Assembly: GCA_965219085.1 (NCBI GenBank)
Contig: OZ244720.1
Coordinates: forward strand, 3,215,527 to 3,279,526
Length of the DNA stretch: 64,000 nucleotides
DNA from: Dehalococcoidia bacterium
GTDB taxonomy: Bacteria > Chloroflexota > Dehalococcoidia > UBA2979
Direction of reading: 5' to 3'
In this document: positions 60,657 through 61,149 of the stretch, piece by piece
Layout: every line of letters begins with the position of its first letter
Position numbering within the stretch: position 1 is the stretch's first letter
Made by a program: the position numbers and the translations under genes
Notes under the pieces: generated by a model
What the model saw: the letters and a program-made list of their open reading frames with translations, nothing else
The model's database searches: none
What the model was told of the DNA's origin: nothing

Positions 60657-60754
60657 CAAGGCGCGGCGCCGAAGCAACCGACCAGGAGAGCGAGACTGAG
60701 ACGGACCTGGGAGGAGGCCCAGCAAACCAACCACTGCACGTGATGCCGGGCAAC

Positions 60755-60887
60755 GGGCGACTGCGAGGCGGTAGCGGTCCAACAAGGACGTTCAAGAGTT
60801 GGCAGCGCCCCCTGGAAGCAGGATGTGCCTTCATGCACCGGGCCCGATACGTGGCCCATCAAAGAGTGCGGATAGAAGCTCGGCACA
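60755..60887 (+). ncRNA. Predicted seekRNA/bridge RNA core of the IS1111-type element
   Basis: Two stem-enclosed internal loops holding GGCGGTAGC, CGTTCAAGAG and ATAGAAGCT, which match the element's own flanks. True transcript ends unknown. Confidence 0.85.
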
Positions 60888-61149
60888 GGCTCCGTCAGGG
60901 GACATCACGAGCGGATCGGCCCCGATGTCGAGGAGCGCCACGCCCCGAGGAGGAGGCCGCCACGTCGGCCTTGCAGAAAGACCGTCCCTCATAGAAGCTA
61001 CCGCCCGCGCGACGAGCAGGAGCCACCCCTGGGCGGACGCAACCCGGATGTCGACTTCCGCGGGCGGCGGCGCAGCCGCGATACGCATAGTTCCGGCACG
61101 GACCCGGAGGCGCGGCTGTACACGAAGACACCCCCAGGACGCTAAGGGG

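What the first reader, a model, noticed from the sequence alone, without database searches (positions are those of the whole stretch)
60657..60999. IS1111 seekRNA/bridge RNA with target and donor guides readable from sequence
Seen, target loop: outer stem GGGCG-a-CTGC (60755-64)/GCAG-CGCCC (60802-10); guide GGCGGTAGC (60767-75) is the exact reverse complement of right flank GCTACCGCC (60997-61005); inner hairpin GTCC-aacaa-GGAC; guide CGTTCAAGAG (60789-98) vs left flank CGCTCAAGAG (59448-57), the mismatch being a G:U wobble. Seen, donor loop: stem TGTGCC (60824-29)/GGCACA (60882-87) holds ATAGAAGCT (60872-80), identical to the right junction 60991-99 (end + core + 2 handshake-like bases); the partner guide is ambiguous (TCATGC or CCATC). 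Known: bottom-strand-first order and a downstream NCR are the reported IS1111 arrangement. This is a candidate new programmable recombinase from a high-GC host.
Basis: partly seen in the sequence, partly recalled or inferred. Interest (0 to 1): 0.9.

Follow-up and report, generated by a model that had tools for sequence, protein, structure and literature searches.

The report
IS1111-type insertion sequence guide RNA
The stretch after this jumping gene's transposase encodes the small guide RNA that picks the insertion site by base pairing, a clear example of a mechanism published in 2024 and not a new kind of system.

Summary
Window 59458-60997 is a 1540-bp IS1111-group insertion sequence. It carries an IS110-family DEDD/Ser transposase (59568-60656), 12/13 subterminal inverted repeats and a 341-nt 3' non-coding region. 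It sits scarlessly in an IS5-like transposase gene at CGCTCAAG-AG-CTACCGCC, and eight empty copies of that site exist in the same genome.

The target loop (60755-60810) is real. In 36 distinct guide types the scaffold GGGCGACTGC...GCAGCGCCC is constant. These types come from four siblings in this genome, from Dehalococcoidia MAGs and from soil and sediment metagenomes. The two loop strands change in step with the right and left flanks (0 of 20,000 permutations reach the observed match for either guide).

The 3' donor guide ATAGAAG (60872-78) tracks the right end in 36 of 37 relatives. The partner guide is most likely GCCTTC (60827-32; 5/6 complementary to G|ATGGC). CCATC is excluded, and TCATGC shows no covariation across the family. 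The "handshake" CT is coincidental.

The guide order, the 3' location and the inverted repeats match the published IS1111 seekRNA/bridge-RNA arrangement. This is a new member of a known kind.

The parts
59448..59457 (+). Left half of the target, CGCTCAAG plus the core AG (59456-57), inside an IS5-like transposase gene
   Evidence: Eight uninterrupted CGCTCAAGAGCTACCGCC sites (six exact, two with one mismatch) lie in other IS5-like copies of the genome. The host ORF has DUF772 and DDE_Tnp_1 domains.
59458..60997 (+). The IS1111-group insertion sequence, 1540 bp counting one copy of the AG core
   Evidence: The boundaries come from comparing filled and empty sites. Identical copies are found elsewhere in the genome.
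59458..59475 (+). Left end: terminal extension ATGGC (59458-62) plus the subterminal inverted repeat ATGAGGGCCGGTC (59463-75)
   Evidence: The repeat matches the reverse complement of 60980-92 at 12 of 13 positions. It is conserved in all siblings.
59568..60656 (+). Transposase gene, 362 aa, GTG start (ATG in the siblings)
   Evidence: PF01548 and PF02371. NF033542 'IS110 family RNA-guided transposase', 238 bits against a cut-off of 140. GLVPRQRDSG with Ser271 aligns to the GLTPRRYESG serine motif of IS621 and ISCro4. DEDD candidates are GLDVG, IEAG and KTDRLDA.
60755..60810 (+). Target-binding loop: an outer stem encloses guide g1, a hairpin and guide g2
   Evidence: The stem is invariant in 16 of 16 aligned relatives. 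The inner hairpin covaries, with 4 pair types at two positions. The stem is recovered in the minimum-free-energy fold.
60767..60775 (+). Target guide g1, GGCGGTAGC, which pairs with the top strand of core G plus the right flank
   Evidence: Exact reverse complement of 60997-61005. This loop strand covaries with the right flank in 36 guide types.
60789..60798 (+). Target guide g2, CGTTCAAGAG, which has the sequence of the left flank plus core and so pairs with the bottom strand
   Evidence: 9 of 10 positions are identical to 59448-57, and the mismatch is an rU:dG wobble. This strand covaries with the left flank in 22 guide types.
60824..60887 (+). Donor-binding loop: outer stem TGTGCC/GGCACA, inner stem GCAC (60835-38)/GTGC (60866-69), and hairpin GGGCC..GGCCC (60840-57)
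   Evidence: GCAC/GTGC is invariant in 16 of 16 sequences. The hairpin shows compensatory changes among siblings (GGGCT/AGCCC, GGACC/GGTCC). The outer stem has two compensatory changes in L044.
60827..60832 (+). Probable 5' donor guide d1, GCCTTC, pairing with core G plus ATGGC of the left end at 5 of 6 positions
   Evidence: The family-wide register -8..-3 before GCAC is 74% complementary to LE5..core G, with 3 pair types at -8:LE5. 201 of 20,000 permutations reach the observed value. Caveat: GCC can also close the outer stem.
60872..60878 (+). 3' donor guide d2, ATAGAAG, which has the sequence of the right end plus core
   Evidence: Identical to 60991-97. Its variants ATAGAAG, ATGGAAG and ATAGAGG agree with the independently located right end in 36 of 37 relatives. 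That corresponds to about 6 co-switches on a weakly resolved transposase tree.
60971..60976 (+). -35-like hexamer TTGCAG. It lies 17 nt before GAAG|AT, which forms only when the right end is joined to the left end in a circle
   Evidence: At the same position relatives carry TTGACA, TTGACC or TTGACT with a 16-17 nt spacer. The integrated element has no sigma-70-like promoter. Function is inferred.
60980..60997 (+). Right end: subterminal inverted repeat GACCGTCCCTCAT (60980-92) plus AGA and the core AG
60998..61005 (+). Right half of the target, CTACCGCC, where the IS5-like reading frame continues
   Evidence: The joined flanks read ...EAWASLKSYRPRD....

Best explanation
Window 59458-60997 is an intact IS1111-group member of the IS110 family. 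Its 3' non-coding region encodes a seekRNA/bridge RNA of roughly 135-155 nt, at about 60735/60755-60890.

Shown here:
- The RNA gene has a constant scaffold with two internal loops.
- In the first loop, the 5' strand (GGCGGTAGC) is complementary to the top strand just right of the insertion point. The 3' strand (CGUUCAAGAG) is identical to the top strand just left of it, including the AG core.
- Both strands are rewritten in every relative that sits in a different site.
- In the second loop, the 3' strand (AUAGAAG) copies the right end plus core and changes with it.
- The 5' strand (most likely GCCUUC) is complementary to core G plus ATGGC of the left end.

Inferred from the published family mechanism:
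- The element excises as a circle joined CATAGA-AG-ATGGC and restores the IS5 gene.
- The junction assembles a promoter (TTGCAG, 17 nt, GAAG|AT) that drives the transposase gene and the NCR.
- The processed RNA binds a transposase tetramer and bridges the circle junction and the target.
- Ser271 and the DEDD RuvC-like domain exchange strands at the AG core.
For: - Anatomy and exact matches.
- Transposase family.
- Empty sites.
- Four sibling types in the same genome have identical scaffolds but different guides, each matching its own flanks.
- The same rule holds in Dehalococcoidia MAG loci and in metagenomic loci found through the scaffold alone.
- Permutation tests give 0 of 20,000 for both target guides.
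- d2 and the right end agree in 36 of 37 relatives.
- The d1 register test gives p of about 0.01.
- Consensus structure shows a covarying hairpin.
- The -35 element is conserved.
- The arrangement matches the published IS1111 layout: PMC11187229 and PMC11208160.
Against: - There are no RNA data.
- No Rfam family matches the NCR.
- The NCR does not fold better than shuffles.
- The 5' donor guide is short and has one mismatch, and its GCC can instead close the outer stem.
- The d2/right-end co-switches rest on a poorly supported tree. Only one independent pair lies on starred branches.
- For ISEc11 a short 82-nt seekRNA sufficed for transposition (PMC11187229), so a donor loop may not be essential in this group.
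- Three of the five identical copies spread as passengers of the IS5 composite, so recent autonomous activity of this copy is not shown.
Confidence: 0.9

Rival explanations
1. Only the first loop is a guide. The ends of the element would be recognised by the transposase through the subterminal inverted repeats. The 'donor loop' would be a protein-binding or structural module, and its resemblance to the right end would be a conserved motif and not a working guide.
For: - The short 82-nt ISEc11 seekRNA supports transposition, and the donor flanks must match the target guides (PMC11187229).
- The 5' donor strand gives only 5 of 6 matches and can pair within the RNA.
- The donor loop is identical in all siblings, so this genome offers no covariation test.
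Against: - d2 switches among ATAGAAG, ATGGAAG and ATAGAGG together with the right end in 36 of 37 relatives.
- d1 position -8 shows three complementary pair types with LE5, including the G:C pair in this clade.
- Durrant et al. predict donor-binding nucleotides in IS1111 bridge RNAs.
Confidence: 0.12
2. The matches are leftovers of target duplication or nested insertion and are not RNA guides. On this view the NCR simply contains old copies of target sequence.
For: The element lives among nested IS copies, and partial tandem copies of its own 3' end exist.
Against: - The two matches sit on opposite strands at fixed positions in a conserved stem-hairpin scaffold.
- They are rewritten for 36 different sites in unrelated metagenomes.
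- A duplication remnant would not keep this geometry.
Confidence: 0.01
3. This is a correctly built guide RNA, but the copy is no longer autonomously mobile. It would now spread only as cargo of the IS5 composite.
For: - A_win, A2 and A3 share both nested IS110-family insertions and differ only outside the IS5 ends.
- The -35 hexamer is degraded to TTGCAG, where the family has TTGACA.
- Eight empty target sites remain unused.
Against: - The ORF is intact and identical in five copies.
- Copies A4 and A5 lie in different IS5 variants, so there were at least two or three separate insertions.
- The guides still match the target perfectly.
Confidence: 0.3

Closest known systems
IS1111-family elements with seekRNA: ISEc11, ISPa11, ISKpn4, ISPst6 (Siddiquee et al. 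2024, PMC11187229)
   Same: - The long NCR lies downstream of the transposase gene.
- Subterminal inverted repeats with short terminal extensions are present.
- A hairpin-centred loop carries a segment complementary to the top strand 5' of a segment complementary to the bottom strand, and the two overlap at the insertion point.
- Close relatives show natural reprogramming.
- The element targets repeated or mobile DNA.
   Different: - The transposase is only about 26-34% identical to plasmid-borne IS1111-group members such as IS5075 and IS4321.
- The IS5075 NCR lacks the GGGCGACTGC...GCAGCGCCC scaffold.
- The host is a high-GC Dehalococcoidia-like genome.
- No experimental data exist.
IS621 / ISCro4 bridge RNA (IS110 group; Durrant et al. 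2024, PMC11208160; Hiraizumi et al. 2024; PDB 8wt6, 9t56)
   Same: - One RNA carries a target loop and a donor loop, each reading both strands around a 2-nt core.
- The recombinase has a DEDD domain and a catalytic serine.
- The element passes through a circular intermediate with a junction promoter.
   Different: - Here the RNA lies in the right end, not the left end.
- The order of top-strand and bottom-strand guides is reversed.
- The subterminal repeats are long.
- The core is AG, not CT.
- The donor loop has an extra inner stem and hairpin.
- The protein aligns to IS621 only over the C-terminal domain.
ISPpu9 / ssr9 modular minicircles (Pares-Guillen et al. 2025, PMC12288879)
   Same: 3' modules occur on their own or in extra copies beside the full element, which suggests the transposase also recombines sub-element modules (abstract only).
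   Different: Here the extra units are tandem 3' fragments, each ending in a right end and each joined at an internal AG. Ssr9 was reported as not required for transposition, whereas the module here carries the guides.

Membership tests
IS110 family (RNA-guided DEDD transposases) | N-terminal DEDD RuvC-like domain and C-terminal Transposase_20 domain | tested here: met
   PF01548 (68 bits) and PF02371 (70 bits). NF033542 equivalog at 238 bits against a cut-off of 140.
IS110 family (RNA-guided DEDD transposases) | Catalytic serine in the G..P....SG motif | tested here: met
   GLVPRQRDSG (Ser271) aligns with GLTPRRYESG of IS621 and ISCro4.
IS1111 group | Subterminal inverted repeats of 7-17 bp set back from the termini | tested here: met
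   59463-75 against 60980-92 matches at 12 of 13 positions. The extensions are ATGGC on the left and AGA on the right. IS5075 has similar ends, ATGG.../...CATAGA.
IS1111 group | The longer non-coding region lies downstream of the transposase gene | tested here: met
   341 nt downstream (60657-60997) against 110 nt upstream (59458-59567).
IS1111 group | Site- and orientation-specific insertion with no duplication beyond the core, and an identifiable empty site | tested here: met
   Eight empty CGCTCAAGAGCTACCGCC sites. The siblings also have empty sites: 7 for type B and at least 10 for type E.
IS1111 seekRNA | The segment complementary to the top strand lies 5' of the segment complementary to the bottom strand, and the two overlap at the insertion point | tested here: met
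   g1 (60767-75) pairs with the top strand from core G rightwards. g2 (60789-98) pairs with the bottom strand up to and including AG.
IS1111 seekRNA | Guide segments covary with the flanks among relatives (natural reprogramming) | tested here: met
   36 guide types, with 0 of 20,000 permutations reaching the observed match.
IS1111 seekRNA | An RNA is transcribed from the NCR and co-purifies with the transposase | not testable with these tools
Bridge RNA (two-loop architecture) | A donor-binding loop with guides for both element ends | tested here: inconclusive
   The right-end guide is supported (36 of 37 agree). The left-end guide has modest support: 5 of 6 matches here and a family register test with p of about 0.01.
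Bridge RNA (two-loop architecture) | Handshake bases next to the guides that match the partner DNA after strand exchange | tested here: not met
   The CT after ATAGAAG is kept as CTC/CTT in siblings whose right flanks begin TG or CA. After g2 most relatives have AT(G/T/A), which matches the first bases of the left end. This element has TTG, so only TG matches.
IS110 group (IS621-like) | Bridge RNA encoded in the left end, upstream of the transposase gene | tested here: not met
   The structured guide module lies in the right end.
Rfam families | Match to a curated covariance model | tested here: not met
   No hit on 60657-60997 at E <= 1.

The most novel reading that the evidence does not exclude
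In this Dehalococcoidia clade the guide-bearing 3' module may behave as an exchangeable cassette.

The observations behind this reading:
- Siblings with 85-90% identical transposases and identical ends carry at least nine different guide pairs. Four of them occur in this one genome.
- At least three of those four (types A, B and E) are aimed at a different resident IS family: IS5-like, IS1380-like and IS3-like.
- Mosaic copies (C, L035) sit in sites that their present guides do not match.
- Tandem arrays of 3' fragments, every one joined at an internal AG, create extra solo guide modules.

Together these would mean two things. The transposase recombines sub-element modules at the core dinucleotide. 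Guides are shuffled or used in trans among co-resident copies, giving a pool of guides directed against other transposons.
Probability: 0.25. Interest if true: 0.55.

Novelty: new member of a known kind. Interest (0 to 1): 0.3.

Why it matters
The finding adds a well-documented natural series to a system of current engineering interest. It offers one conserved scaffold and 36 naturally reprogrammed guide pairs, from a high-GC lineage that is only about 26-34% identical in protein to the characterised IS1111 elements.

The series also bears on an open detail, namely how IS1111-type RNAs read the element's left end. It supplies a concrete candidate (GCCUUC against G|ATGGC) that can be tested with compensatory mutations.

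It does not reveal a new mechanism.

Tried and rejected
- **Rfam scan of 58500-63500.** Nothing matched the NCR. The only hit was Ms_AS-4, inside the neighbouring IS110 gene.
- **Whole-NCR folding energy.** It is not better than shuffles, so it was not used as evidence.
- **Sigma-70 and terminator scan of the integrated element.** No sites were found.
- **CCATC (60856-60) as left-end guide.** Rejected. It is the 3' strand of the inner hairpin and changes to CCACC or CCACA in siblings that have the same left end.
- **TCATGC/TTCATGC (60830-36) against GCATGAG.** It is a perfect match in this clade. Across the family that register is only 44% complementary and shows no covariation (7121 of 20,000 permutations).
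- **CT as handshake bases.** Rejected.
- **Trans-guidance as the explanation for copy C.** Disfavoured. C is 100% type B from about alignment column 340 onward but distinct in its first ~300 columns, so recombination explains the mismatch. L035 remains unresolved.
- **Independent-contrast test of d2 against the right end on a transposase tree.** Underpowered, with only one pair on well-supported branches.
- **IS5075 NCR.** Inspected for the same scaffold, which is absent.
- **Metagenome scaffold scan.** Many hits were chance matches in GC-rich DNA. Only those that also carried the donor-loop signature were kept.

Full report
**Observation**

I read 59300-61200. Every coordinate in the finding is exact.
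- The stem GGGCG-a-CTGC (60755-64) pairs with GCAG-CGCCC (60802-10).
- GGCGGTAGC (60767-75) is the reverse complement of GCTACCGCC (60997-61005).
- The hairpin is GTCC-aacaa-GGAC.
- CGTTCAAGAG (60789-98) matches CGCTCAAGAG (59448-57). The one difference puts an RNA U opposite a bottom-strand G.
- TGTGCC (60824-29) pairs with GGCACA (60882-87).
- ATAGAAGCT (60872-80) equals 60991-99.

The minimum-free-energy fold recovers the first stem and hairpin. The NCR as a whole folds no better than shuffles (z = 0.22).

**What the element is**

The ORF at 59568-60656 (362 aa) carries PF01548 and PF02371. It scores 238 bits on NF033542, 'IS110 family RNA-guided transposase', against a cut-off of 140. Its GLVPRQRDSG motif aligns with the serine motif of IS621 and ISCro4.

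Against plasmid records the protein aligns over about 80% of its length with IS1111-group elements such as IS5075 and IS4321, at 26-34% identity. It aligns with IS621 only over the C-terminal domain.

The ends carry 12/13 subterminal inverted repeats: ATGAGGGCCGGTC at 59463-75 and GACCGTCCCTCAT at 60980-92. The upstream non-coding stretch is 110 nt and the downstream one is 341 nt.

The element interrupts an IS5-like transposase gene (DUF772 plus DDE_Tnp_1). Eight uninterrupted copies of CGCTCAAG-AG-CTACCGCC exist elsewhere in the genome. This fixes the insert at 59458-60997 (1540 bp) with an AG core. The empty sites read EAWASLKSYRPRD across the insertion point.

**Siblings in the same genome**

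A search of the window's own genome (3.3 Mb, one contig) found five 100%-identical copies and six copies at about 86% identity. Aligning them shows a constant scaffold in which only two short segments are rewritten.

After reading past tandem partial copies of the right end, each type matches its own flanks:

| Type | Reverse complement of g1 | Right junction | g2 | Left flank |
|---|---|---|---|---|
| B | AAGTGGGTGC | AAG\|TGGGTGA | GGCAGAG | GGGCAGAG |
| D | AGCAGCTCGGC | AG\|CAGCTCGT | TCCACCAG | CCCACCAG |
| E | AAGCAGCCTG | AAG\|CAGCCTGG | CCGCATAG | CCGCATAG |

Empty sites exist for types B and E. These targets lie in an IS1380-like (DDE_Tnp_1_4) gene and an IS3-like (rve) gene respectively.

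**Relatives elsewhere**

A transposase-based scan of genome contigs returned 26 loci, nearly all from Dehalococcoidia or Tepidiformaceae MAGs at 87-90% identity. They add further guide types F to I, plus the more distant L044 (69% identity) and L046 (52% identity). All obey the same rule.

About 40 of its hits also carry the donor-loop signature.

After collapsing to 36 distinct guide types, I compared each guide with its own flank and with permuted flanks, with the core removed:

| Guide | Own flank, mean longest exact match | Permuted flanks | Permutations reaching observed |
|---|---|---|---|
| g1 (36 types) | 5.9 nt | 3.2 nt | 0 of 20,000 |
| g2 (22 types with a left flank) | 4.4 nt | 2.9 nt | 0 of 20,000 |

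RNAalifold on 16 diverse members keeps the outer stem invariant. It shows four pair types at two positions of the inner hairpin.

**Donor loop**

RNAalifold also finds an invariant inner stem, GCAC (60835-38) with GTGC (60866-69). That leaves a 5' strand before GCAC and a 3' strand, GGATAGAAGCTC.

The 3' guide has three variants: ATAGAAG, ATGGAAG and ATAGAGG. I located the right end independently through its inverted repeat, and the guide agrees with it in 36 of 37 relatives. On a quick transposase tree this needs about six co-switches, but only one pair lies on well-supported branches.

For the 5' guide I tabulated complementarity between each position before GCAC and each left-end position. 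The only coherent anti-diagonal is -8..-3 against LE5..LE1 plus core G.
- That register has three pair types at -8:LE5. One of them is the G:C pair specific to this clade, where the left end is ATGGC and most relatives have ATGGG.
- It is 74% complementary, and 201 of 20,000 permutations reach the observed value.
- The TCATGC register is 44% complementary and shows no covariation.

In the window this register gives GCCTTC (60827-32) against G|ATGGC, with 5 of 6 matches. CCATC is excluded because it is hairpin stem and is not conserved.

The CT after ATAGAAG is retained in siblings whose right flanks begin TG or CA, so it is not a handshake.

**Promoter**

The integrated element has no sigma-70-like promoter or intrinsic terminator. 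Relatives carry TTGACA, TTGACC or TTGACT at a fixed place in the right end. That place is 16-17 nt before GAAG|AT, a hexamer that exists only once the right end is joined to the left end. The window has TTGCAG at 60971-76. This fits the junction promoter described for the family (PMC11187229). Its function here is inferred.

**Comparison with the literature**

Siddiquee et al. report three features of IS1111 elements: a downstream NCR, a seekRNA with the top-strand match 5' of the bottom-strand match, and natural reprogramming between relatives. [quoted passage not shown]

The element here fits all of this. It is therefore a new member of a known kind. Earlier follow-ups in this scan reached the same verdict for similar elements. 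I treated those as leads only.

**Limits**

- Three of the five identical copies are copies of the whole IS5 composite, including a second nested IS110-family element. Copy number therefore overstates activity.

**Side observations**

- Copy C sits in a type A site but carries type B guides. It is 100% type B from about alignment column 340 onward and distinct before that, so recombination between siblings explains it. L035 shows a similar mismatch that I could not resolve.
- Tandem 3' fragments follow several copies. All six distinct junctions verified by script fall after an AG in the source sequence, where the AG frequency is 0.10. One junction, in L044, lies exactly after the DNA that encodes g2.
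- Copies A4 and A5 carry an ORF-less group II intron in the right end.
- In L034 and L045 another IS110-family element sits inside the donor-loop DNA.

Noticed in passing
window 61128-62630 (minus strand); Rfam hit at 61468-61549 (+): A second, unrelated IS110-family element is nested in the same IS5-like gene about 130 bp downstream. Its transposase is 407 aa (61150-62373, minus strand; NF033542 at 192 bits). The Rfam family Ms_AS-4 (64 bits, above its gathering score) matches antisense inside this transposase gene.
   Followed up: partly
own genome C1:1799941-1801480 and C1:1204273-1205812, compared with window 59458-60997: Three of the five identical copies share both nested IS110-family insertions and differ only outside the IS5 ends. 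The whole triple composite was therefore copied, presumably by an IS5 transposase acting in trans.
   Followed up: yes
own genome C1:1936773-1938290 (B), 891775-893398 (D), 2848476-2850740 (E): Sibling elements have the same ends and donor loop but different target guides. Type B targets an IS1380-like (DDE_Tnp_1_4) gene, type E an IS3-like (rve) gene and type A an IS5-like gene. One IS lineage is thus programmed against at least three other IS families in a single genome.
   Followed up: yes
own genome C1:2850006-2850740; also 893322-893397, 1261337-1261394; L044 4381-4611: Tandem arrays of 3' fragments of the element follow several copies. The units are 59-322 bp, each ends in a right end, and one holds a complete second guide module. 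All six distinct junctions fall just after an AG in the source sequence (AG frequency 0.10), which points to recombination at the core dinucleotide. In L044 the junction lies exactly after the DNA that encodes target guide g2.
   Followed up: partly
own genome C1:340396-341913 (copy C); L035: These copies carry guides that do not match the site they occupy. C is a mosaic: 100% type B from about alignment column 340 onward and distinct in its first ~300 columns. L035 has type H ends and guides but sits in a type F (REP-like palindrome) site. Recombination between siblings or guidance in trans could explain this.
   Followed up: partly
own genome C1:1859038-1859954 and 1972909-1973825 (locus L168): An ORF-less group II intron of about 917 nt lies on the minus strand (Rfam RF02003 at 95 bits; RF00029 at 45 bits). 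It is inserted in the right end of two type A copies at GCAGAAAG|ACCGTCC, which separates the -35 hexamer from the element's tip.
   Followed up: yes
L034 4297-5590 and L045 4298-5590: A different IS110-family element (362-aa transposase, minus strand) is inserted in the donor-loop DNA of type B-like copies at GGATAG|AAGCT. This is an IS inside an IS at the position that mimics the right end.
   Followed up: partly
L046 4085-4340: A 52%-identical relative, from an Acidobacteria MAG labelled 'Candidatus Acidiferrum', has two tandem target loops whose guides differ slightly (GATGTCAAG and GACGTCAAG). Only the second loop is followed by a donor loop. This may be a duplicate-and-diverge route to new specificity.
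   Followed up: no
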